Shown here: positions 3,071 to 41,507 of the stretch, piece by piece
Layout of the letters: each line of letters starts with the position of its first letter
How positions within the stretch are numbered: the first letter of the stretch is position 1
Origin: a virus
Lineage: Duplodnaviria > Caudoviricetes
Length of the DNA: 41,507 nucleotides
IMG/VR virus record: IMGVR_UViG_3300017649_000007
Coordinates: 1 to 41,507 of that record
Direction: 5' to 3' (one strand)
Program-made: the position numbers and the translations under genes
The notes under the pieces: model-generated
Told to the model about the DNA's origin: nothing
Databases searched by the model: none
The model's input: the letters and a program-made list of their open reading frames with translations, nothing else

Positions 3071-4849
3071 ATGGCACCCAAGAGCCAAGACCCTTGGGAC
3101 GCAGCCGATCTCGAAGAGCTGAAGATAAGCCCCGAAGTCGCGTACTACATGAAGTCACGCGGCTTCGGGGTTCCCGACTGCCCGCCCCTGATCAAAACCC
3201 CGGAGCCTGGCTACGTCAGGGTTCCCGAAGCGCGCAAGTGCCGATTCGACTGCGACAGAGTTGATCACGTGATCCTGGCCTTCCGTCAGTTGCGGCACAC
3301 GAAGGGCCGCATGGCAGGCCAGGTGTTCGAGCCTGACCCGTGGCAGATCGCCTACGTGATCGCACCGTGGGCCGGTTGGGTCTGGCCGTCGCCCGATACG
3401 GGCGAGTACGTCCGCGTCATAACCACTCTGTACGTTGATCTTCCGCGTAAGAACGGCAAGACGACGCTGGCCGGTGGCATCGCCCTCTACATGACGGCGG
3501 CTGACGGAGAACAGGGCGCACAGGTGCTCGCCGCCGCGACGACGAAAGAGCAGGCGCAGTTCGTGTTCGAACCGATGCGCAAGCTCGTCTTCAAGTCACC
3601 CGGCCTGCGACGGTATCTGAAGGCTACCAAGGGTTCTATCTCGCACTCGCTCAGCGGCTCCTACTTCAAGCCGATTGCGAGTGCTGGTGACGCCCAGCAC
3701 GGCGCAGACATCCACGCCGGGATCGTGGACGAGCTGCACCTGCACAAGACGCCAGATCTCATCGACGCCTTGGAGACTGGCACCGGCTCTCGACTTCAGC
3801 CGCTCATGATGTTCATCACGACGGCTGACGCTGGCAAGCGAAACACCCCGTACGACAAGAGACGTTCCCGCATCGAGCAATTGGCGCGCGGTGTGCTGAA
3901 AGATCCGACCACCTATGGCGTGATCTTCGCCGCCGAACGACCCGAGTACAAAGACGGCGTGCTCATCAAGGGTGACGACCCGTTCGCCAAAGAGACTCTG
4001 CGGAAAGCAAACCCAGGTGCAGGCGTCAGTCCTACGTGGCGCTACCTCATGCAGGAGGCCGAGACGGCCAAAGAGAGTCCTGCGCAATACGCACGCTATC
4101 TGCGTCTGCATCTGGGCATCCGCACCAAACAGGAAACCCGGTTCCTCGATGTCGACACCTGGGACGCCAACGCGGGAATCGTTGTCCCAGAACGACTCAA
4201 GGGCAAGCGCTGCTTCGGCGGGCTCGACCTGGGTTCAACGTCCGACCTCACGGCGTTCGTGCTGGTGTTCCCGGACGATGAGCGCGGCGGGTTCGATGTC
4301 CTGGCCTGGCACTGGTGCCCGGAGGAAACCATCGAAGACCTGGACCGGCGCACTGCGGATGCTGCGTCGACAGAATGGGTTCCGAACGGCTGGCTCCGCA
4401 CAACACCTGGCGCTGTGACCGACTACGAGTTCATCAAGACGCAGATCCTCGACGCGCTCGACACCTACGACGTCCAAGAGATTGCGTTCGACCCTTGGCA
4501 CTCAGTGCAGTTGGTGACCGACCTCATAAACGAGGGAGCGCCGATGGTCGGTATGCGGCAGGGCTACTCGACAATGTCTGCTCCCACAAAGGATCTCGAC
4601 CGGGTCCTGAAGATGGGTGCGCAAGAGGTTGAGGGCACGCTGAAACCCCTTATGCGGCACGGGGGAAACCCGCTACTGCGCTGGGAGGTCGACAACTTCG
4701 CGGTGCAGATCGACGCAGCGGGAAACGTGAAGCCAGACAAGGCGAACGCCGGTGACAAGATCGACGGCGTTGTTGCCCTGATCATGGCGCTGGGTCGCGC
4801 AATGGCCGCGCTGTCCGACAACCAAGTGCCTTGGGCCGCTTGGGTGTAA
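3071..4849 (+). CDS. terL: Terminase large subunit
   Basis: Walker A PRKNGKTT, Walker B GIVDELH, nuclease motifs GGLDLGSTSDLTA and KIDGVVA. Confidence 0.95.
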   Translation: MAPKSQDPWDAADLEELKISPEVAYYMKSRGFGVPDCPPLIKTPEPGYVRVPEARKCRFDCDRVDHVILAFRQLRHTKGRMAGQVFEPDPWQIAYVIAPWAGWVWPSPDTGEYVRVITTLYVDLPRKNGKTTLAGGIALYMTAADGEQGAQVLAAATTKEQAQFVFEPMRKLVFKSPGLRRYLKATKGSISHSLSGSYFKPIASAGDAQHGADIHAGIVDELHLHKTPDLIDALETGTGSRLQPLMMFITTADAGKRNTPYDKRRSRIEQLARGVLKDPTTYGVIFAAERPEYKDGVLIKGDDPFAKETLRKANPGAGVSPTWRYLMQEAETAKESPAQYARYLRLHLGIRTKQETRFLDVDTWDANAGIVVPERLKGKRCFGGLDLGSTSDLTAFVLVFPDDERGGFDVLAWHWCPEETIEDLDRRTADAASTEWVPNGWLRTTPGAVTDYEFIKTQILDALDTYDVQEIAFDPWHSVQLVTDLINEGAPMVGMRQGYSTMSAPTKDLDRVLKMGAQEVEGTLKPLMRHGGNPLLRWEVDNFAVQIDAAGNVKPDKANAGDKIDGVVALIMALGRAMAALSDNQVPWAAWV

Positions 4850-33377: not shown

Positions 33378-33739
33378 AGCCAGCGGATGTGTTCTGGGTG
33401 AGCGTGCCGGTCGTGGCGATTGCCCACAACGTCTGGGCGGCACGGACGGGTCGTGAGCAACTGTCGCAGGCGATGGATCGCTATCGAGCTGCCAGCCCTG
33501 TGGCCGAGCTGGCCGTGATGGCTACTGCGGCGCATCTGTGTCGTCGCCTGCCAGCGTTTCTCGACCCGTGGGCATGGTTGTACGGGATGACGACGAAAGT
33601 CAGCCACAGCGGGCGTGGGGCGCTGGGAATCGTGCTCCTAGCCGCGCTGGGCGGGCTGGGTGCCAGTGTGTGGCTGGCACGCCAGCTTGAAGACACCTCA
33701 ATCGATCTTGGTCCAAGGGAGGCAGTTCCAACTGACTAG
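33374..33739 (+). CDS. Membrane protein
   Basis: Hydrophobic segments; EQLS.A.DRY...AAHL...DP motif; ATGA coupling. Confidence 0.65.
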   Translation: MKPADVFWVSVPVVAIAHNVWAARTGREQLSQAMDRYRAASPVAELAVMATAAHLCRRLPAFLDPWAWLYGMTTKVSHSGRGALGIVLLAALGGLGASVWLARQLEDTSIDLGPREAVPTD

Positions 33740-34087
33740 ATACTCACCCTCGTGCAGGGCGACTACGGCACTCTCGCCGTAGTCGGCCCTGCCTGAGTCG
33801 ACCAGGGTCTCAGCAAGATCGGAGATCGACTCGGAGTAGGGGACGCCATCGTGGATCTGCCACGTGCAAAAGCGTCCCCGCATAAGAGTGGAACCCTGTG
33901 TCTCCCAAAGGCCCTCACTCTCGGCGTCTACGTGATAGTAGACGCCATTTTTTGTGTCTATAGTCGGGTTCGCTTGCGCCACAACGGGAACGGCCAGCGC
34001 AGTCGCAGCCGCTGTGACACCGGCAACAGCCAGGCGATGCGGATGCATCACCTGAAATGCTTTCAGTATCTCGTTCCGTACGCTCAT
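33698..34087 (-). CDS. Putative secreted protein (start ATG 34087 or 34048)
   Basis: Signal peptide RLAVAGVTAAATALAVPVVAQA; G.W.T.G...C.W...C.PW pattern resembling small actinobacterial secreted proteins. Confidence 0.65.
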   Translation of the reverse strand: MSVRNEILKAFQVMHPHRLAVAGVTAAATALAVPVVAQANPTIDTKNGVYYHVDAESEGLWETQGSTLMRGRFCTWQIHDGVPYSESISDLAETLVDSGRADYGESAVVALHEGEYLVSWNCLPWTKID

Positions 34088-34253
34088 GTGATGCAGGCTA
34101 CACCTGTTTCCGCAGCTCAGCCAGTTGACCGGGATCACGCGGGAATCTGCGAACGCAGGTTTCCCAGTTCTGTAGCAAATGTCGGCAAGCTTCTGACGTG
34201 CAAGGTGCGAGCCAGAGCAAATGCTGAAAAGGCGTGCATGTCCCCCACACTTT

Positions 34254-34262
34254 TGATATTCT
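34254..34262 (+). promoter_or_regulatory. Candidate extended -10 promoter driving the leader and cassette array
   Basis: TGATATTCT fits TGnTAnnnT; a stable hairpin begins 6-8 nt downstream, where a start site would fall. Confidence 0.45.
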
Positions 34263-34267
34263 GTGAT

Positions 34268-34606
34268 GTTCGGTTCAGCGATGAGCCGACGGGCGACCAG
34301 CCGCTCCCACGAGCGAGAACCCGCCCCCAGCACTTTGACAACTACACAGAGACGAAAGCAGAGGGTGAGAGTATCGCGCCCGCAATGCGATTCACGCCGA
34401 TGAGGCTGTAGGTGGGTGTTCATCTGAGGCTCACGCCACCGGGATCGCAAGCGCGAGAGTGTAACCCGCTGTAGTAGTTGAGAATGTGTCTCCTTTCCAA
34501 TCTTTCTCCAATTGCCCCCCAAAGGGCAGGGTTGCCAACGGGTTCCGATCCGTTGGCTTCCCCGTGTTTTGGGAGTCAAAGCACCACTTCAAGATTGGAG
34601 ATCACA
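34268..34606 (+). ncRNA. Candidate long structured leader or small RNA
   Basis: GCGA-tetraloop hairpin 34270-34289; CGGG..CGCTC/GAGCG..CCCG domain; long-range pairing 34339-34349 with 34469-34480; hairpins 34514-34528, 34529-34562 (UCCG loop) and 34564-34584; ends in AAGATTGGAGA. Confidence 0.55.
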
Positions 34607-34846
34607 ATGGCAGCAATTGTCAGCAAGCGAATCCGCGCGGGCCTCTACGAGGTCACGACCGACACGGGTCGTACGTTCACCGTCGAGCAGATCCGCACCG
34701 ACACACCCGGCTACGGCGTCGAGCGGCGCTGGTGGGTCAACCCGTCCGACGACGGACCCCACCCCGTGTTCGACCCGTTCGCCACCAAGGGTGATGCACT
34801 CGATGCCATTACGTTGATGTTCAGCTCTGACAAAAGCTGGATGTGA
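34607..34846 (+). CDS. Hypothetical protein (cassette 1)
   Basis: ATG follows AAGATTGGAGA; 79 aa. Confidence 0.75.
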   Translation: MAAIVSKRIRAGLYEVTTDTGRTFTVEQIRTDTPGYGVERRWWVNPSDDGPHPVFDPFATKGDALDAITLMFSSDKSWM

Positions 34847-34851
34847 CGTTC

Positions 34852-34931
34852 TGAGTGCGACTCAGCCACACAGACTTCCGAGCCTGTGTGTGCTGCTGGT
34901 GTACTCAGCACCACCACAACAAGATTGGAGA
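34852..34931 (+). repeat. Structured intergenic element A1
   Basis: TGAGTG..CAGCCACACAG/CTGTGTGTGCTG..GGTG-TACTCAG-CACC..CAACAAGATTGGAGA; 34848-34931 is identical to 36286-36369. Confidence 0.95.
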
Positions 34932-34936
34932 GAACA

Positions 34937-35212
34937 ATGAAGGTTTGCGCACACGAGAACCTGGGGCCGTTCCAGAACGTCCACTTTCGCGCCGACTCGA
35001 TCAAGCAAGCGGTCGAACGGTTCCGGGAGGATCTGGAAGGCGTCTACGGCACGCTGGAAGGCATCACCGAGCGCACCGGGGAGGATCATGCCCCGGCGCT
35101 GGGTGTGTACCCGCAATGCCCAGATTGCGACTCCCAGATGAACTTCCACGACTACCCACTGGGTCTGTACCGGGTGGGGCCGCGTGGAGGCATACAGCGC
35201 ATGTTCGGATGA
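34937..35212 (+). CDS. Hypothetical protein (cassette 2)
   Basis: ATG after element RBS; its stop is the first codon of element B1; CPDC motif. Confidence 0.75.
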   Translation: MKVCAHENLGPFQNVHFRADSIKQAVERFREDLEGVYGTLEGITERTGEDHAPALGVYPQCPDCDSQMNFHDYPLGLYRVGPRGGIQRMFG

Positions 35213-35295
35213 ATCAACGGCAGGCACACAGTCTTTCCGGGGCCTGTGTGTCTGTAGATGGATTCAACCATCAACCCTCACAACAAGATTGGAGA
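35210..35295 (+). repeat. Structured intergenic element B1
   Basis: TGAATC..GCAGGCACACAG/CTGTGTGTCTGT..GATGG-ATTCAA-CCATC..CAACAAGATTGGAGA. Confidence 0.93.
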
Positions 35296-35300
35296 CGACA

Positions 35301-35591
35301 ATGTCTGACTCGAAGAATCCCTACATCCTCCGTGCCGACGAGGTGAAGCCGGGTGAGATCGTGGTCGACAAGCACGGGAGCCTTTGGGTTCTCGATGAAT
35401 TGGGCGAGCGCCCGCAGTGGCGCTACATCGTCCCCGAGGATTCGACCCGCGAACCGGGTTACTCGTGGGACGGGTTCGACGCCCTGCCAGAGGCTTACGA
35501 GCCGTACACAGTGCTCGATGAGGGCGCGTGCGCCGTCATCGGCAAGTGGCTCGTAGCCGAGGCTCGTCGCCGCAAGGTTTACGTTGTCTGA
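35301..35591 (+). CDS. Hypothetical protein (cassette 3)
   Basis: ATG after element RBS; its stop begins element B2. Confidence 0.75.
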   Translation: MSDSKNPYILRADEVKPGEIVVDKHGSLWVLDELGERPQWRYIVPEDSTREPGYSWDGFDALPEAYEPYTVLDEGACAVIGKWLVAEARRRKVYVV

Positions 35592-35674
35592 ATCAACGGC
35601 AGGCACACAGTTCTTTCGGGGCCTGTGTGTCTGTAGATGGATTCAGCCATCAACCCACACAACGAGATTGGAGA
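35589..35674 (+). repeat. Structured intergenic element B2
   Basis: Near-copy of B1; tail reads CAACGAGATTGGAGA. Confidence 0.93.
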
Positions 35675-35679
35675 CAAAC

Positions 35680-35961
35680 ATGTACGTTGAGACCCGCACC
35701 GACGCATCCGAGGTTTTGGAAACCGTTCTGCGCGAACTGATTCACATGATCATCCGTTTGCGTAACACGGTCCACACCAAGCGGAACATCAGCTCCTACG
35801 TCACCAATCCGCAACTGCGGCAGATGGCGAACGAGCTGCGCGGAGCCTACGTGCTGGCTTGCCGGGTGGCCGGAGATCCCGACCGCATCCCGCTCGAGGT
35901 TCATGAACAGTACGGCGAAGCCGTGCGAGCGGCCCAAGAGTTGGTTGGCAAGCTCGCTTGA
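35680..35961 (+). CDS. Hypothetical helical protein (cassette 4)
   Basis: ATG after element RBS; its stop begins element A2. Confidence 0.75.
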   Translation: MYVETRTDASEVLETVLRELIHMIIRLRNTVHTKRNISSYVTNPQLRQMANELRGAYVLACRVAGDPDRIPLEVHEQYGEAVRAAQELVGKLA

Positions 35962-36041
35962 GTGTGACTCAGCCACACAGACTCCCGAGAGCCTGTGTGT
36001 GCTGCTGGTGTACTCAAGCACCACCGCAACAAGATTGGAGA
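35959..36041 (+). repeat. Structured intergenic element A2
   Basis: A-family copy with +2 and +1 nt insertions in the two loop regions. Confidence 0.95.
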
Positions 36042-36046
36042 CGACA

Positions 36047-36292
36047 ATGGCTAAAGCAGATCGCCGCGTCAGCGTGACCGACCTCAAGACCTGCAAGCGT
36101 TGTGGCGTGGGCAGTCTCTCTTGGGAGACCTCGCGCCGCAACGGCAAGCCCTATCTGTGCATTGTTCGACGCACACGGGAAGGCTTGTACGCCATGCCCT
36201 ATCAGCCTCACAAGTGCCATCCCGACGACGTTGCCCGCATGGACGCTGCGCGCGCCCAGGACGAAGCCAACGGGATTCACTTCGAGTTCTGA
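36047..36292 (+). CDS. Small putative Zn-binding protein (cassette 5)
   Basis: CKRC...H.C motif; its stop begins element A3. Confidence 0.75.
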   Translation: MAKADRRVSVTDLKTCKRCGVGSLSWETSRRNGKPYLCIVRRTREGLYAMPYQPHKCHPDDVARMDAARAQDEANGIHFEF

Positions 36293-36369
36293 GTGCGACT
36301 CAGCCACACAGACTTCCGAGCCTGTGTGTGCTGCTGGTGTACTCAGCACCACCACAACAAGATTGGAGA
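36290..36369 (+). repeat. Structured intergenic element A3
   Basis: Identical to A1. Confidence 0.95.
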
Positions 36370-36374
36370 CGACG

Positions 36375-36890
36375 ATGACCACCTACTATGTCCCCGCCGA
36401 TCACACCGCCACCGAGTGGCGAGAGATGGCGAAGGATTGCTACCGCCGCGAGCAGGAATCGTTCGAGCGGAGCGACACAGATGGTTTCCTGTCCCAGTGG
36501 GCCGCAAACCAATTCGCTAAGATGTACGAGCGGATGGCAGAGCTGGCCGCAAACGGGGGCCGTGCGAACCTGCATTGGCTCTACGAGCGGGACAACGAGA
36601 CCGGCGAGTGGGTGCCCGTCGAGAACTGGCGCTGGGTTGAAACGCGTTACGGCATGAGCGTTCTCGTGGTTCGTGAAAGCCGCGAGAACGTGTTTTTCAA
36701 CCCGTCCGAGGCTCGCAAGGCTTCGACGCGTCAGCGCAACGACGAGCGCAAAGGCTTCCGCTGGGGCACAGTGGAAACCGAGGTCGTCTGCCGCTTCGGC
36801 GGCGGCGCGTACAACATGATCGTCACCGAGCGGAAGCGCAACGCTCCGCTGACGGTCGTTTCAACCGCTCATTACAGCGATTGGGACTGA
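36375..36890 (+). CDS. Hypothetical protein (cassette 6)
   Basis: ATG after element RBS; 171 aa; its stop begins element A4. Confidence 0.8.
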   Translation: MTTYYVPADHTATEWREMAKDCYRREQESFERSDTDGFLSQWAANQFAKMYERMAELAANGGRANLHWLYERDNETGEWVPVENWRWVETRYGMSVLVVRESRENVFFNPSEARKASTRQRNDERKGFRWGTVETEVVCRFGGGAYNMIVTERKRNAPLTVVSTAHYSDWD

Positions 36891-36964
36891 GTGTGACTCA
36901 GCCACACAGGCTTTCGAGCCTGTGTGTGCTGCTGGTGTACTCAGCACCGCAACAAGATTGGAGA
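36888..36964 (+). repeat. Structured intergenic element A4
   Basis: Perfect CACACAGGCT-TTCG-AGCCTGTGTG stem. Confidence 0.95.
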
Positions 36965-36969
36965 CGACA

Positions 36970-37140
36970 ATGACCAAGATCACGACCGTTGCTGCCCGCT
37001 CGATCCGCGTGGGCACCGTGTTCGCCGATGGCGCTACCGTCATGGAGCGCCACACGGCAGAGGGCCTGCTCAAGTTCGTCTGTGATGACGGGCGCGAGAT
37101 GACCTATCGCTCCAGCGACCGTGTGAAAGTCACGTACTGA
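36970..37140 (+). CDS. Small hypothetical protein (cassette 7)
   Basis: 56 aa filling exactly the space between two elements. Confidence 0.75.
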   Translation: MTKITTVAARSIRVGTVFADGATVMERHTAEGLLKFVCDDGREMTYRSSDRVKVTY

Positions 37141-37214
37141 GTGTGACTCAGCCACACAGACTTCCGAGCCTGTGTGTGCTGCTGGTGTACTCAGCACCGC
37201 AACAAGATTGGAGA
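37138..37214 (+). repeat. Structured intergenic element A5
   Basis: A-family copy that starts at the upstream stop codon. Confidence 0.95.
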
Positions 37215-37220
37215 CGACAA

Positions 37221-37508
37221 ATGATCAAGTTCGTTCACATCAAGGGCGACGACGCCTACCGCGCCATCGGTGCCCAGCACATTTACTGGGCGCAGAGGGA
37301 TGGGAAGCGTTGGCAGGTAAGCGTTCATAACCGGGTCGACTTCCGTGAGCTGACGCTCACAGCGCCGGGACAAGCGCTCGACACTGAGTGGTTCGACCGT
37401 CTGAGTGAGTGCAAAACCTATGCGCAGCACTACGAGGCCAACGTTGACCACGAGAGCCGTCGCTACCTGAACCGCTCAACGCGAGCCGTGCTCGCCACGA
37501 TGGAATGA
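37221..37508 (+). CDS. Hypothetical protein (cassette 8)
   Basis: ATG after element RBS. Confidence 0.75.
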   Translation: MIKFVHIKGDDAYRAIGAQHIYWAQRDGKRWQVSVHNRVDFRELTLTAPGQALDTEWFDRLSECKTYAQHYEANVDHESRRYLNRSTRAVLATME

Positions 37509-37517
37509 AGGCACCTC

Positions 37518-37597
37518 TGAGTGTGACTCAGCCACACAGACTTCCGAGCCTGTGTGTGCTGCTGGTGTACTCAGCACCGCCACAACAAGATTGGAGA
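37518..37597 (+). repeat. Structured intergenic element A6
   Basis: A-family copy. Confidence 0.95.
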
Positions 37598-37602
37598 CAA
37601 CA

Positions 37603-37833
37603 GTGAAGGTTACCGAGATTCGAAGGCTCGCAATGCAGTCCACACGCTATGGCTGGTACGACCACGGTTCAACCGTCGCCGCCACCTGCCCACTGTGCCG
37701 CAAACACGTCGTGACTCAGTACAGCATGTGGGCAACCGCCCCTAACGGTAAGCGCCTCAGCAAGATTCAACAGGCGCGCAATGGGGTGGCCGACCATCTC
37801 GCCTCCGAGTGTGTCGAAACTGTCAACGCCTAA
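37603..37833 (+). CDS. Small putative Zn-finger protein (cassette 9)
   Basis: GTG after element RBS; CPLC...H...C motif; its TAA begins element C1. Confidence 0.75.
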   Translation: MKVTEIRRLAMQSTRYGWYDHGSTVAATCPLCRKHVVTQYSMWATAPNGKRLSKIQQARNGVADHLASECVETVNA

Positions 37834-37906
37834 GCCGGTAGGAGGCGCAGCTACTCGCGTGGGTAGTTGCGTCTCTGGTCTGCTTAGACCGCAACAAGAT
37901 TGGAGA
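37831..37906 (+). repeat. Structured intergenic element C1
   Basis: TAAGC..GGAGGCGCAGCTACTC/GGGTAGTTGCGTCTCT GGTC-TGCTTA-GACC GCAACAAGATTGGAGA. Confidence 0.92.
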
Positions 37907-37911
37907 ACACA

Positions 37912-38244
37912 ATGAACACCAGCTATGTTCGTCAGCGTACCGGGGCTCCCGAGGCAGTTGCACAGGGCCGCACGCAGATCACCTACAACGGTCGCACCCG
38001 AACGGCACGTACAGCCGATGGGGTGGAAATCGTTGAGGGCCTGCGGGTCTACACCAACGACCTGGAGCGCGGCGTGATCCGTCTCGACCGCGCCGAGTGG
38101 GAGTGGTACGGATCAGAGGGCAAGTACCATCTGTGGTTCGAGGTCGAGGTCGATCACAACTACAAGGGCGAGCCTGTGAACGGGGAGCGCGTGCTCCAGT
38201 CTGACGACCGGGTTGCCACACGGTTCGAGGGGGTACCGGCATGA
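37912..38244 (+). CDS. Hypothetical protein (cassette 10a)
   Basis: ATG after element RBS. Confidence 0.75.
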   Translation: MNTSYVRQRTGAPEAVAQGRTQITYNGRTRTARTADGVEIVEGLRVYTNDLERGVIRLDRAEWEWYGSEGKYHLWFEVEVDHNYKGEPVNGERVLQSDDRVATRFEGVPA

Positions 38245-38447
38245 GCAACTTCAAGGCAACGGAAGTCGTTGCACTGCATATGTATCCGCACGGTGTGGGC
38301 TCGTTCGCCCACTTCGATGTCGTCGCCGTGACAAGCAACGGCAAAGAGATTTTCCAAGGGTACGCAGTGAGCTACGACGTGGTGAAGGCACGGCAAAAGC
38401 AAGCCTTCCCATACGCTTCCGTGGAGATCATCGAACCCGCGCTCTGA
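38241..38447 (+). CDS. Hypothetical protein (cassette 10b)
   Basis: ATGA coupling and GAGGGG RBS; its stop begins element C2. Confidence 0.7.
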   Translation: MSNFKATEVVALHMYPHGVGSFAHFDVVAVTSNGKEIFQGYAVSYDVVKARQKQAFPYASVEIIEPAL

Positions 38448-38522
38448 GTGGGTAGGAGGCGCAGCTGTCCAGTGTGGGCAGTTGCGTCTCTGGTTCACTC
38501 AGAACCACAACAAGATTGGAGA
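38445..38522 (+). repeat. Structured intergenic element C2
   Basis: TGAGTG, then a 17-bp stem, then GGTT-CACTCAG-AACC and the tail. Confidence 0.93.
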
Positions 38523-38529
38523 CAAGAGA

Positions 38530-38913
38530 ATGGCAACAGTAAAGGTGTACCTGAATGTCAGCCGGGATAGCTTCTTCGGCTTCTACAACGACTTCGGGAA
38601 GCCAGTCCTAGTCCCTGCCATCACTTTTGAGCTGGACGATGAGCTCGCTTCCGACCTGCAATGCGGTGCGCCGTATGCAGCCTTGGAGCGGGTGTTCGAG
38701 CAATTGAACATCGGCGGGCATGACGGCGGGCCAGAGGGTAAGCCGTGGACCGTCGAGTACCGACAGAACGGCTACCGTAGCCTATCGGTGGGTGACGTTG
38801 TCGTGATCGGGGAACTTGCGTACGCCGTGGAAAGCTCTGGCTGGCGCTACATCCCGACCGACGATCTGACGGCGGCGCTGCAACGCGGCGTTGAGCAGGG
38901 GGTGGGCAAATGA
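38530..38913 (+). CDS. YodL-like domain protein (cassette 11a)
   Basis: LERVFEQLN...RSLSVGDVVV...AY.V.S.GW matches the YodL-like motif as recalled. Confidence 0.65.
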   Translation: MATVKVYLNVSRDSFFGFYNDFGKPVLVPAITFELDDELASDLQCGAPYAALERVFEQLNIGGHDGGPEGKPWTVEYRQNGYRSLSVGDVVVIGELAYAVESSGWRYIPTDDLTAALQRGVEQGVGK

Positions 38914-39230
38914 TCACGCTCACATACTGTTCCGAGTGCGGGGCAGACTTGAGCAACGGGTACGCGCATGCCCGACCGTGCTGCTATGAGCAGATGCGGA
39001 TCGTGCAGCCTAACAACGACTGGCGCGGCCTTCGGGTGTGGCCGAAAGAGGGCTACACCAAATACAAAGGGCCGCGTGTTGATCGGGCAGGCGAGCCCGT
39101 GCCGAGCGGCACCGTACTTGGGTGCAACGGCATGGGCAGCGCGTACATCAAGTGGGACAATGGCTCTGTGTCATTGCTCCCGGTCAACGAGATCGAGACG
39201 TACGGGCAACGCGTCCACGTCGAGCTCTGA
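38910..39230 (+). CDS. Hypothetical protein (cassette 11b)
   Basis: ATGA coupling; CSEC motif and SH3-like G.V.....IKWDNG; its stop begins element C3. Confidence 0.7.
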   Translation: MITLTYCSECGADLSNGYAHARPCCYEQMRIVQPNNDWRGLRVWPKEGYTKYKGPRVDRAGEPVPSGTVLGCNGMGSAYIKWDNGSVSLLPVNEIETYGQRVHVEL

Positions 39231-39307
39231 GTGGGTAGGAGACGTAGCTGCCAACATGTTTGGCAGTTGCGTCTCTGGTTCACTCAGAACCGCAACAAGA
39301 TTGGAGA
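39228..39307 (+). repeat. Structured intergenic element C3
   Basis: Ends resemble C2; upper stem resembles C4-C6. Confidence 0.93.
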
Positions 39308-39312
39308 GAACA

Positions 39313-40254
39313 ATGACAACCACCATCGTCAAGGATCGTCGTCGCAGCACTACGCGCCGTTCGGCCAAGCCTCGTCGTGATGTCACGTCCAGCGACTTGC
39401 CGCTACGTGATGACGGGAAGGTCGACCTGGTCAAGGTTCTGGAGTTCGCACTCACAGCACCCGGCCATCTGTCGAAGTGCTACAACAGATTCCATCGTTA
39501 TTCGCTGCTCAACATCATCATGGTGCTGATGCAGACCGGCAAGATGGAACCGATGGCGACGTTCAATCGCTGGAAGTCGCTGGGACGAAACGTCACAAAA
39601 GGCAGCAAGGCGCTGTGGGTCAACCACCCGCGCTTCGCTCCCGAGCGTGACTCTGACGGCCTCCCAGTGGTCGGCAAAGATGGCAAGGTCGAGATGAAGG
39701 TTGTCGGGTTCTACCCGAAAGCCACTGTGTTCCAACTGCATCAGACAGAGGGGCCGGATCTCAAAATGCCTGAACTGCCAGAGTGGGACCGCGAGCAAGC
39801 CGCCAAGGTGCTTGAGCTGAACGAAGTTCCGTTCGAGTACCACGACGGCAACGCCCAGGGCTACAGCACAGGCCGCGACTACGCGATCAACCCTGTGGCT
39901 GAGTACCCGATCAAGACCCTGTTCCACGAGTGGGGTCACATCTTGTGCGGTCACACAACCGGCGACGACAACGCTCCGATGCATCGTGGCGTCCGCGAGT
40001 TCCAAGCTGAGGCAGTCGCTTTGCTCGTCTGCAAGGAACTCGATGTCAAAGAGTACGACCCAGCCGCCTGCCGTGGGTACATCCAGAACTGGCTGCAAGG
40101 CCAGAGCGCCGAGTACCTGGACGACGACGGCAACCTGGCCGTGACGGATGCTGTTGTGCGGCAGATCTTCGCCGCCGCCGACAAGATCCTCACAGCCGGG
40201 CGGAAGTCGCACTACGACAAGATGGAGGCCGACCGTGATAACGCGCAACGTTAA
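39313..40254 (+). CDS. ardC: ArdC-like antirestriction protein (ssDNA-binding domain plus zincin metallopeptidase)
   Basis: YSLLN..ATFNRWKSLGRNVTKGSKA N-domain; HEWGH zincin motif; REFQAE; YIQNWL. Confidence 0.8.
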   Translation: MTTTIVKDRRRSTTRRSAKPRRDVTSSDLPLRDDGKVDLVKVLEFALTAPGHLSKCYNRFHRYSLLNIIMVLMQTGKMEPMATFNRWKSLGRNVTKGSKALWVNHPRFAPERDSDGLPVVGKDGKVEMKVVGFYPKATVFQLHQTEGPDLKMPELPEWDREQAAKVLELNEVPFEYHDGNAQGYSTGRDYAINPVAEYPIKTLFHEWGHILCGHTTGDDNAPMHRGVREFQAEAVALLVCKELDVKEYDPAACRGYIQNWLQGQSAEYLDDDGNLAVTDAVVRQIFAAADKILTAGRKSHYDKMEADRDNAQR

Positions 40255-40381
40255 CGGCAAGTGGATCTGCCACTGCGGCAACGATGCCCGTAACGACGGC
40301 TCAGAGTATGACTGGGTGTGCGAACAGTGGCCGTTCTGCGAACAGGAACGGCCAGAGCTGCAAGCACCCTGGTTGGACTGA
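40235..40381 (+). CDS. Small Cys-rich protein (cassette 12b)
   Basis: GGAGG before GTG 40235; CHC...C.....C pattern; its stop begins element C4. Confidence 0.6.
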   Translation: MITRNVNGKWICHCGNDARNDGSEYDWVCEQWPFCEQERPELQAPWLD

Positions 40382-40457
40382 GTAGGTAGGAGGCGCTGCT
40401 GCCAATATGATTGGCAGTAGCGTCTCTGGTCTACTTAGACCACAACAAGATTGGAGG
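40379..40457 (+). repeat. Structured intergenic element C4
   Basis: TGAGTAG..GCGCTGCTGCCAAT/ATTGGCAGTAGCGT..GGTC-TACTTA-GACC and the tail. Confidence 0.93.
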
Positions 40458-40465
40458 CAAACAAA

Positions 40466-40627
40466 ATGGATGTTCAAGCGACCTACGACGAGCTTGCCGA
40501 TCTCACCAACCAAGCCCTATCTGGCTGTGAGGTCGACGCCGTCCGCATGGCCGAACTCTTTGAGTCGCTTGACTGCTGGCTCAAGGCGCGCGGTTATCTG
40601 CCGAAGTCATGGGCAGAGGGCCGGTGA
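40466..40627 (+). CDS. Small hypothetical protein (cassette 13a; absent from the ORF track)
   Basis: ATG after element RBS; translates to MDVQATYDELADLTNQALSGCEVDAVRMAELFESLDCWLKARGYLPKSWAEGR (53 aa). Confidence 0.7.
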   Translation: MDVQATYDELADLTNQALSGCEVDAVRMAELFESLDCWLKARGYLPKSWAEGR

Positions 40628-40632
40628 TCACA

Positions 40633-40941
40633 ATGGCTACCAAAGTGATTGCCAAAGTGCCCACGTACAGCAGGCAGTACCGCGAAGCCAGCCTCGAAGA
40701 GCTGCGCACCAGAGACGATCTGGTGTTTAGCGACATCGAAGAGGACACGGCAGCCGACACGGTCACGGTCTACTACACAACCAAGATTCGTCAGTGGTGC
40801 GGCGCACTGCGCAAGGTCGGGATCGACCCAGAGATACTTGCCTGGGTCCCGAACCACGGCAGGGGTGAAACGCGGCTCGAACTGTTGGAGTCAGGCAAGT
40901 GGACACTCGTGGATGTGATCAACGATGAACTCAACGGCTAG
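40633..40941 (+). CDS. Hypothetical protein (cassette 13b)
   Basis: Follows 13a directly (alternative start GTG 40624); ends just before element C5. Confidence 0.7.
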   Translation: MATKVIAKVPTYSRQYREASLEELRTRDDLVFSDIEEDTAADTVTVYYTTKIRQWCGALRKVGIDPEILAWVPNHGRGETRLELLESGKWTLVDVINDELNG

Positions 40942-40943
40942 GT

Positions 40944-41023
40944 TGAGTAGATAGGAGACGCTGCTGCCAAACATGATTGGCAGTAGCGTCTCTGGTCTAC
41001 TTAGACCGCAACAAGATTGGAGA
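40944..41023 (+). repeat. Structured intergenic element C5
   Basis: 40941-41023 is identical to 41425-41507 (83 bp). Confidence 0.95.
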
Positions 41024-41028
41024 CAACA

Positions 41029-41421
41029 ATGTGCAAGATCATAGGGGCCGACCCATACGTCACACCTGACGACCGGGATCGGGAACTGTTGGCGCAACGT
41101 GCAACCCGTCGAGCCGAGGTCAACGCTCCACGGTCGGGTGACTACGTCGTTTTCACAGACGGCGTGAAGCGCCGGATCAGCTCCCTGTGGGACGGCAATG
41201 TGCAAACGTCGGACGGCGGATCGTGGTACCTGCTGACGAGCGGTGACGCCTCGTTCTCCGGGTCGCTACATCCGCCCGTGCGACGAGAATTCCTGACCGA
41301 TTCGAGAGAGACAGAGCCAGCGTCGTTTTGGTTCTTCCATCACGATTTGGCGCAGGCGCACAACGCCGTCCACGTCGAGCTGCGCGTCCGTGTCTGGACC
41401 GCAAGCACAACGGCACCCTAG
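41029..41421 (+). CDS. Hypothetical protein, DUF4121-like (cassette 14)
   Basis: PRSGDYV...SFSGS...FWFFHHD..AHNAV.V...VRVW resembles the DUF4121 pattern as recalled. Confidence 0.5.
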   Translation: MCKIIGADPYVTPDDRDRELLAQRATRRAEVNAPRSGDYVVFTDGVKRRISSLWDGNVQTSDGGSWYLLTSGDASFSGSLHPPVRREFLTDSRETEPASFWFFHHDLAQAHNAVHVELRVRVWTASTTAP

Positions 41422-41427
41422 CTGGGT

Positions 41428-41507
41428 TGAGTAGATAGGAGACGCTGCTGCCAAACATGATTGGCAGTAGCGTCTCTGGTCTACTTAGACCGCAACAAGA
41501 TTGGAGA
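41428..41507 (+). repeat. Structured intergenic element C6 (window ends at its tail)
   Basis: Identical to C5. Confidence 0.95.

What the first reader, a model, noticed from the sequence alone, without database searches (positions are those of the whole stretch)
34852..41507. Array of 14 structured elements, each heading a one- or two-gene cassette: candidate undescribed phage gene-cassette system
Seen: for 6.6 kb, essentially all non-coding DNA is an ~80-nt element, in the order A,B,B,A,A,A,A,A,C,C,C,C,C,C. Each runs from at or near the upstream stop codon to a CAAC(A/G)AGATTGGAG tail, with the next start 5-8 nt later. The cargo genes are small and unrelated to each other. Known analogies are integron cassettes, start-associated sequences of cluster K mycobacteriophages and promoter stem-loop modules of T4-like phages. 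These elements lack attC boxes and obvious promoters and are far more structured than a start-associated motif. Inference: a portable stop-structure-RBS unit acting as expression module, RNA processing signal and/or recombination joint.
Basis: partly seen in the sequence, partly recalled or inferred. Interest (0 to 1): 0.92.

Follow-up and report, generated by a model that had tools for sequence, protein, structure and literature searches.

The report
Two-state RNA joints between phage genes
A mycobacteriophage-like virus separates its small accessory genes with 15 copies of a folded hairpin plus a fixed ribosome-binding site, close relatives swap genes at these joints, and the hairpins, of a kind already noted in cluster M mycobacteriophages, likely mark where one long message is cut and protected.

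Summary
The array is real: 14 elements as described, a 15th upstream, and two more on an overlapping contig, between the lysis genes and integrase of a temperate actinophage. Each element is a long covarying hairpin, usually holding the upstream stop codon, overlapped by a small rival hairpin and followed by a fixed Shine-Dalgarno tail. It is not undescribed: the same hairpin family fills accessory-gene gaps in cluster M mycobacteriophages (Rey, Bongo, Estes), where stem-loops before CR3/CR4 repeats were noted in 2014; the tail differs. No Rfam match. Relatives gain, lose and reorder cassettes with junctions inside the elements, consistent with ordinary homologous recombination; no attC sites or dedicated recombinase were found. 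Best reading (0.55): mRNA processing and protection signals, as RNase III sites in T7; in one relative a type II hammerhead ribozyme occupies the same slot before the same tail. The enzyme and cut site are not shown, and E. coli RNase III rules fit inconsistently. A conserved antisense copy of the tail in four leaders hints at a master switch. This scan reported similar arrays in many other phage genomes.

The parts
34254..34262 (+). Extended -10-like site, candidate promoter of the array operon
   Evidence: Only such match in 33740-34610, none inside the array; inference
34333..34349 (+). Leader motif shared with the L173 leader; BoxA-like (likeness recalled)
   Evidence: present in 2 of 4 leaders
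34490..34504 (+). Antisense copy of the shared tail, predicted to hide the first ribosome-binding site
34518..34600 (+).
34607..34846 (+). Cargo, 79 aa; homolog in MrMiyagi array
34851..34930 (+). Element 1 (A)
34937..35212 (+). Cargo, 91 aa; homologs in MrMiyagi and Rey
35209..35294 (+). Element 2 (B), supplies stop
35301..35591 (+). Cargo, 96 aa
35588..35673 (+). Element 3 (B), supplies stop
35680..35961 (+). Cargo, 93 aa; homolog in L223 array
35958..36040 (+). Element 4 (A), supplies stop
36047..36292 (+). Cargo, 81 aa; homolog in MrMiyagi array
36289..36368 (+). Element 5 (A), supplies stop
36375..36890 (+). Cargo, 171 aa; homologs in 135 actinophage records
36887..36963 (+). Element 6 (A), supplies stop
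36970..37140 (+). Cargo, 56 aa
37137..37213 (+). Element 7 (A), supplies stop
37221..37508 (+). Cargo, 95 aa; not covered in 3 of 4 relative runs
37517..37596 (+). Element 8 (A)
37603..37833 (+). Cargo, 76 aa; behind a B element in relatives
37830..37905 (+). Element 9 (C), supplies stop
37912..38447 (+). Two-gene cargo, 110 aa and 68 aa
38444..38521 (+). Element 10 (C), supplies stop
38530..39230 (+). Two-gene cargo, 127 aa and 106 aa; behind a B element in relatives
39227..39306 (+). Element 11 (C), supplies stop
39313..40381 (+). Two-gene cargo: ArdC-like anti-restriction protein (313 aa) and 47 aa
40378..40456 (+). Element 12 (C), supplies stop
40466..40941 (+). Two-gene cargo, 53 aa and 102 aa
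40943..41022 (+). Element 13 (C)
41029..41421 (+). Cargo, 130 aa
41427..41506 (+). Element 14 (C) at the contig end; the array continues on L210

Best explanation
Each element is a covarying long hairpin overlapped by a small rival hairpin and followed by a fixed ribosome-binding tail, and it likely works in the messenger RNA as a site where a host double-strand ribonuclease, most likely RNase III, cuts one long accessory-gene transcript into units that keep protective hairpins at their new ends. Shown: the two mutually exclusive folds, the stop codon in the long stem's base in most copies, one operon with a leader and a single U-tract terminator at its end, and cassette exchange with junctions inside the elements. 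Inferred: a cut in the long hairpin would leave the upper stem on the upstream piece and let the downstream piece refold its 5' end into the small hairpin ahead of an A/C-rich leader and the ribosome-binding site; a ribosome stopping in the stem base would flip the fold and so tie cutting to translation. Inferred separately (about 0.8): the repeats act as homologous-recombination joints as a by-product of their identity, with no dedicated recombinase.
For: Long hairpin: 86.6% of cells paired against 67.8% shuffled, covariation score 0.454 against 0.188 (0 of 500 shuffles), at most 0.127 when slid, on 33 distinct hairpins; G-U pairs are tolerated. Small hairpin: at least 4 Watson-Crick pairs in 14 of 14 window elements and 49 of 56 distinct family members, against 1,881 of 12,400 shuffled linkers, with different paired sequences in different types. 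Element 0 has no upstream gene, has replaced the basal sequence, and keeps the same ladder of pairs and mismatches and a small hairpin. In L187 the slot before the same tail holds a type II hammerhead (full model, 33.2 bits, E 2.8e-5) whose cut would also leave a hairpin on both products; hammerheads flanking single prophage genes are known to cleave (PMC3088659, passages). MrMiyagi and Cuke, which share cargo and one family hairpin each, fill other gaps with tRNA T-arm-like units. Stem length 22-27 pairs in the window covers the 22-bp RNase III footprint, and T7 R1.1 is a 49-nt stem cut on one strand (PMC3867540 section 7, PMC8708148 section 8). No U-tract in 14 of 14; no internal promoter.
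Against: No RNA end was observed; the one RNA run is contigs only. The hammerhead is a single case among 19 sources scanned, scores below Rfam's gathering cut-off of 37, and was not tested for cleavage. The E. coli RNase III pair matrix gives no shared register: only 2 of 14 reach the paper's stricter score (-25.5), all 14 the looser (-33.8), with best registers 9, 19 or 20 and no random-stem control. The good half-site fit at the stem base (best in 5 of 11 window and 19 of 24 other hairpins) is confounded with the stop codon, and a cut there would destroy the small hairpin. Hairpins from metagenomes were found with a pattern that fixed the basal letters. The host and its RNase III specificity are unknown.
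Confidence: 0.55

Rival explanations
1. No cutting: the element is a translation-coupling switch. A ribosome stopping in the stem base melts the long hairpin, the small hairpin forms, and this changes re-initiation, Rho access or decay of the next cassette.
For: Stop codon at positions 2-4 in 10 of 14 window elements and 12 of 25 anchored cluster M hairpins; the small hairpin forms in 10 of 14 when the first 14 nt are blocked.
Against: Neither fold covers the Shine-Dalgarno tail; element 0 keeps both folds without an upstream gene; a hammerhead can take the slot; about half the cluster M copies are off the stop codon.
Confidence: 0.25
2. The hairpins are intrinsic terminators or attenuators that grade expression along the array, as in T4-type PeSLs.
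For: Strong intergenic hairpins right at gene ends; PeSL stem-loops terminate (PMC2839356, passages).
Against: 0-1 T in the first 8 nt after the stem in 14 of 14; mycobacterial polymerase does not stop at hairpins lacking a U-tract (PMC3993855, abstract); no promoter to restart; the operon ends in a normal U-tract terminator.
Confidence: 0.07
3. The elements are binding or cutting sites for a phage protein, such as the ASCH-domain protein encoded near the end of the array.
For: An ASCH gene ends the array in L210 and lies in the G001 array, 56% identical; similar to the human ASC-1 ASCH domain, E 3e-11.
Against: No ASCH homolog in the held array stretches of L223, L206, L174, L200, Rey, Bongo, Estes, Kumao, MrMiyagi or Cuke (stretches only, not whole genomes); loops and upper stems are not conserved in sequence.
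Confidence: 0.08
4. An integron-like system: single-stranded DNA hairpins recombined by a site-specific enzyme.
For: Cassette gain, loss and reordering; imperfect hairpins with fixed mismatches; a tyrosine integrase lies just downstream in L210.
Against: No attC boxes in 14 of 14; crossovers fall in different stretches of shared sequence, including the unpaired tail; G001 has the array and no PF00589 match (67% complete); the L210 integrase sits with a repressor as an ordinary immunity cassette.
Confidence: 0.04

Closest known systems
Stem-loops upstream of conserved repeats CR3/CR4 in cluster M mycobacteriophages (Pope et al. 2014, seen only as cited in PMC7953290)
   Same: Same hairpin family (80% over 64 nt to Rey; model hits in Rey 3, Bongo 3, Estes 4), same place before small accessory genes near the integrase, small rival hairpin present, gene insertions come with a repeat copy.
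   Different: Different tail sequence; array lies between lysis genes and a tyrosine integrase; copies are more uniform. What the 2014 paper proposed as function could not be read.
RNase III processing sites of the T7 early region (R1.1; PMC8708148 section 8, PMC3867540 section 7)
   Same: Intergenic imperfect stem of similar size just upstream of the next ribosome-binding site in a polycistronic message.
   Different: Cleavage not shown; no consistent fit to the E. coli pair matrix; copies are repeats, hold the stop codon and have a rival fold.
Hammerhead ribozymes flanking single genes in prophages (PMC3088659, passages)
   Same: Punctuate variable small genes, including anti-restriction genes; one occupies this slot in L187.
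   Different: The window's elements have no ribozyme core.
PeSL regulatory cassettes of T4-type phages RB49/phi1 (PMC2839356, abstract and passages)
   Same: About 100-bp intergenic repeats from stop codon to start codon that serve as homologous-recombination joints for orphan genes.
   Different: PeSLs carry a promoter and a terminator; these carry neither.
Start-associated sequences (SAS/ESAS) of cluster K mycobacteriophages (PMC3203893, passages)
   Same: A fixed, phage-specific sequence at the ribosome-binding site, longer than pairing with 16S rRNA needs.
   Different: Different sequence; ESAS inverted repeats are conserved in sequence, whereas these stems vary in sequence and keep pairing.

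Membership tests
Cluster M stem-loop + CR3/CR4 modules | Stem-loop upstream of a conserved start-site repeat between accessory genes | tested here: met
Cluster M stem-loop + CR3/CR4 modules | Hairpin homologous to the cluster M hairpins | tested here: met
Cluster M stem-loop + CR3/CR4 modules | Start-site repeat has the cluster M sequence | tested here: not met
   Tails differ; the published CR3/CR4 consensus itself was not readable
Cluster M stem-loop + CR3/CR4 modules | Inserted genes come with a repeat copy | tested here: met
   L187 against L173, 382-nt insert between 41-nt identical tails
RNase III processing sites (T7 type) | Stem of about 22 bp in an intercistronic gap | tested here: met
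   22-27 pairs in the 11 distinct window hairpins
RNase III processing sites (T7 type) | Proximal/distal box pair preferences in one shared register | tested here: inconclusive
   matrix from PMC6212723 Table S4 (E. coli enzyme)
RNase III processing sites (T7 type) | Cleavage that depends on RNase III | not testable with these tools
   No raw RNA reads available
Integron cassettes | attC boxes around the hairpin (box pattern recalled) | tested here: not met
   0 of 14
Integron cassettes | Linked integron integrase | tested here: not met
   None in G000 or G001 (both incomplete); L210 integrase lies with a repressor and was not tested for the IntI insertion
PeSL cassettes | Promoter within each element | tested here: not met
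PeSL cassettes | Crossovers inside the elements | tested here: met
Intrinsic terminators | U-tract after the stem | tested here: not met
Any Rfam family | Score at or above the gathering cut-off | tested here: not met
   (best: a generic miRNA-precursor hairpin, 30.8 against 80 bits)

The most novel reading that the evidence does not exclude
These phages run a plug-in RNA punctuation system in which three unrelated cutters (a translation-gated two-state hairpin, a hammerhead ribozyme and a tRNA-like unit) fill one slot, and the released leader RNA, carrying an antisense copy of the shared ribosome-binding tail, switches every cassette off together, so any gene that recombines in behind a tail is captured by one master control.
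Probability: 0.15. Interest if true: 0.78.

Novelty: new variant of a known kind. Interest (0 to 1): 0.45.

Why it matters
The stem-loops before cluster M repeats have been unexplained since 2014. This array and its relatives supply natural experiments: a hammerhead in the same slot, a first copy that keeps the fold without a stop codon, and cassette swaps between near-identical phages. Together they make the processing idea directly testable in cultured phages on M. smegmatis, and show how actinophages can trade accessory and anti-defence genes without a dedicated recombinase. If the leader antisense switch is real, it would be a new way to control a variable gene array.

Tried and rejected
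Rfam at gathering score: nothing in the window or in 14 related loci; at relaxed E-value only generic hairpin families in the window and two true tRNAs in six other loci. A 14-nt tail scan of viral contigs returned 120 stretches, the 80 listed all single matches and not followed up; a 17-nt scan gave 47 loci, one contig with an array. The scan of bacterial genomes gave 13 single matches, none confirmed by the model, so no host was identified. The model found no hit at E<=0.05 in the held stretches of Kumao, Argie, Pherobrine, Muddy or prophiT36-2a, although Kumao gaps hold similar-looking hairpins; Pherobrine repeats look promoter-like and are a different thing. A comparison with a mycobacterial pre-rRNA processing stem could not be made: no such genome was reachable. 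RNA run X16 gave five contigs, on the leader region and three cargo genes; contigs cannot show ends, strand or level, so it was not used as evidence. No RecT, Erf or Sak family hit among 78 ORFs (77 chosen from 123 listed, plus one). Pope et al. 2014 was not held; a mis-remembered DOI fetched an unrelated paper. Literature searches for a functional study of these hairpins found none, in an open-access library only. The BoxA likeness could not be checked against a printed sequence.
Full report
Context. The window is a 41.5-kb piece of a tailed phage: terminase, portal, capsid, tail and lysis genes fill 1-33.7 kb, and the large terminase is 67% identical to those of Mycobacterium abscessus prophages. 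The array follows the lysis genes. L210 is identical to the window over its last 2,606 nt and shows what follows: two more elements, an ASCH-domain gene, a 51-codon gene, a hairpin with a U-tract, then a tyrosine integrase (E 5e-22) and an HTH repressor on the other strand. The phage is therefore probably temperate, and the array reads as one operon of at least 17 units.

Observation. Confirmed as written. The tail has 16 matches against 0.19 expected, 15 of them in the array. Non-coding DNA in 34852-41507 is 14 gaps of 78-94 nt and one of 5 nt. The upstream stop codon is positions 2-4 of the hairpin in 10 of 14. A 15th element at 34518-34600 was missed. No two cargo proteins are alike; one is ArdC-like.

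Anatomy. Each element has a 6-bp basal stem, a weak zone, a mismatch at pair 11 in 28 of 35 distinct hairpins, and a sequence-variable upper stem. On 33 distinct hairpins the structure covaries: score 0.454 against 0.188 in shuffles (0 of 500) and at most 0.127 when slid; 15 of 20 pairs change on both sides, which 16 of 500 shuffles also reach. The structure was read from one member and the metagenomic members were found with a pattern fixing the basal letters, so these numbers lean in its favour. Two earlier scan notes described a rival small hairpin; I tested it here. The 3' arm can pair with the linker behind it: at least 4 Watson-Crick pairs in 14 of 14 window elements and 49 of 56 distinct members, against 1,881 of 12,400 shuffled linkers. 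Element 0, which has no upstream gene, has a different basal sequence with no stop codon, yet keeps the ladder and an 8-bp small hairpin. No element has a U-tract, an attC box or a promoter (one loose match).

Relatives. A structure-anchored pattern gave 68 stretches in metagenome contigs. Arrays occur in a population with D-type hairpins (L173, L187, L203, L225, L208, L178 and G001), and in L223, L174, L200 and L206. In cultured phages, the type A element matches Rey at 80% over 64 nt, and the model hits Rey 3, Bongo 3, Estes 4, MrMiyagi 1 and Cuke 1 times. Folding the cluster M gaps without any motif gave a hairpin of 20 or more pairs in 33 of 45. PMC7953290 (whole text) states that cluster M phages have stem-loops upstream of CR3 and CR4 and that inserted genes carry a CR3 copy. 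The original 2014 paper was not available. The hairpin family is thus described; the tail here is different.

Cassette exchange. L187 is 99.9% identical to L173 over 5.7 kb and then carries a 382-nt insert (a 90-codon gene and its spacer) between two identical 41-nt tails; L173, L203 and L225 lack it; only 14 nt of L187 lie beyond the second junction. L225 lacks a 64-codon cassette of L203 and carries an 89% allele of the next, with the junction in the element. Four runs from three other studies (possibly one campaign) hold close relatives, most laid contigs 90-100% alike: the 76- and 127-codon genes sit behind B elements, the 96-codon gene behind an A element in 2 of 4, new cargo follows known tails, the 95-codon gene is uncovered in 3 of 4, and one 1,856-nt contig runs from the 127/106 pair through a C element straight into the gene that follows element 14 in L210. 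Crossovers fall wherever sequence is shared, as for PeSLs (PMC2839356, passages). G001 has no tyrosine integrase match (67% complete). Both phages encode a PD-(D/E)XK nuclease downstream; no RecT-like family was found among 78 ORFs.

What fills the slot elsewhere. The spacer of the L187 insert is not the hairpin but a type II hammerhead: full-length model match, 33.2 bits against a cut-off of 37, E 2.8e-5, intact core, and the sequence allows the 4-bp loop I pseudoknot described in PMC3088659 (passages). It was the only one in 19 sources. MrMiyagi shares four cargo families with the window and fills most gaps with tRNA T-arm-like units: nine motif matches on the coding strand and none on the other in both MrMiyagi and Cuke, whose stretch includes two true tRNAs; that these are cut by tRNA-processing enzymes is inference. 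Two other likely cutting signals in the same slot are the main reason to favour processing.

Which enzyme. Size fits RNase III (22-bp footprint; PMC3867540 section 7; T7 R1.1, PMC8708148 section 8). Scoring with the E. coli pair counts (PMC6212723, passages and Table S4) is inconclusive. A half-site at the stem base scores best in 5 of 11 window and 19 of 24 other hairpins, but those pairs are also the stop codon, which coincides in 12 of 25 cluster M cases. Full-site scores reach the strict threshold in 2 of 14 and the loose one in 14 of 14, in different registers and without a random-stem control. A cut near pair 11-12 would place the small hairpin at the new 5' end, which suits protection (end hairpins stabilise mRNA, PMC7509114, passages), but that register fits the E. 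coli rules poorly in A and D types.

Leader. Three relatives have a -35/-10 match upstream of the array and the window an extended -10 at 34254. All four leaders carry an antisense copy of the tail shortly before the first element: 9 nt in the window (0 of 176 background windows), 10 in L173 (0 of 50), 7 in L223 (1 of 36), 6 in L206. It is predicted to hide the first ribosome-binding site in the window and L223, less clearly in L173, and pairs with an internal tail at -17.1 kcal/mol. Action in trans is speculation.

Verdict. A real, selected RNA module; a variant of the cluster M stem-loop and repeat architecture that likely works like T7's processing sites and doubles as a recombination joint as PeSLs do. 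It is not an integron, a terminator array or an Rfam family. Searches for a functional study found none in the open-access library. This scan has reported the same kind of array in other genomes: 9 notes held all words of one query and 6 of another; these are not independent support. Interest 0.45.

Noticed in passing
L187 5985-6056: Type II hammerhead ribozyme candidate just below the Rfam cut-off, in the spacer of an inserted cassette.
   Followed up: partly
L170 5200-12269; L247 1-9000: MrMiyagi and Cuke separate small genes with repeated tRNA T-arm/acceptor-like units plus a small hairpin and a fixed RBS; ARAGORN calls none in L170; no paper on them found.
   Followed up: partly
window 34333-34349; L173 leader: Shared leader motif resembling an rRNA-operon BoxA antitermination signal (likeness recalled), in 2 of 4 leaders.
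   Followed up: partly
window 34490-34504: Antisense copy of the shared ribosome-binding tail, found in 4 of 4 leaders.
   Followed up: partly
L210 5552-5935 (-); L217 9572-9943 (-): ASCH-domain gene near the end of two arrays, 56% identical, similar to human ASC-1 ASCH domain.
   Followed up: partly
L210 4275-5300 (+): The integrase frame runs about 60 codons past its domain and contains a copy of the tail that may start an overlapping small gene; a similar SD precedes the repressor.
   Followed up: no
L210 about 4080-4110: tRNA 3'-half-like stretch between integrase and repressor, a candidate attP core.
   Followed up: no
window 33698-34050 (-): Leftward gene for a small, probably secreted or membrane protein (weak PHROG match) between lysis genes and the array; terminator-like hairpin at 33923-33946.
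   Followed up: no
L173 5441-5566; L217 10985-11120: Two family hairpins in tandem within one gap.
   Followed up: no
L169 3222-8849: Kumao gaps contain a separate repeated short hairpin motif besides long hairpins before a fixed RBS.
   Followed up: no
G001:C1:37237-37250 (+): An exact tail copy on the strand opposite the array, with no start codon at the usual distance.
   Followed up: no
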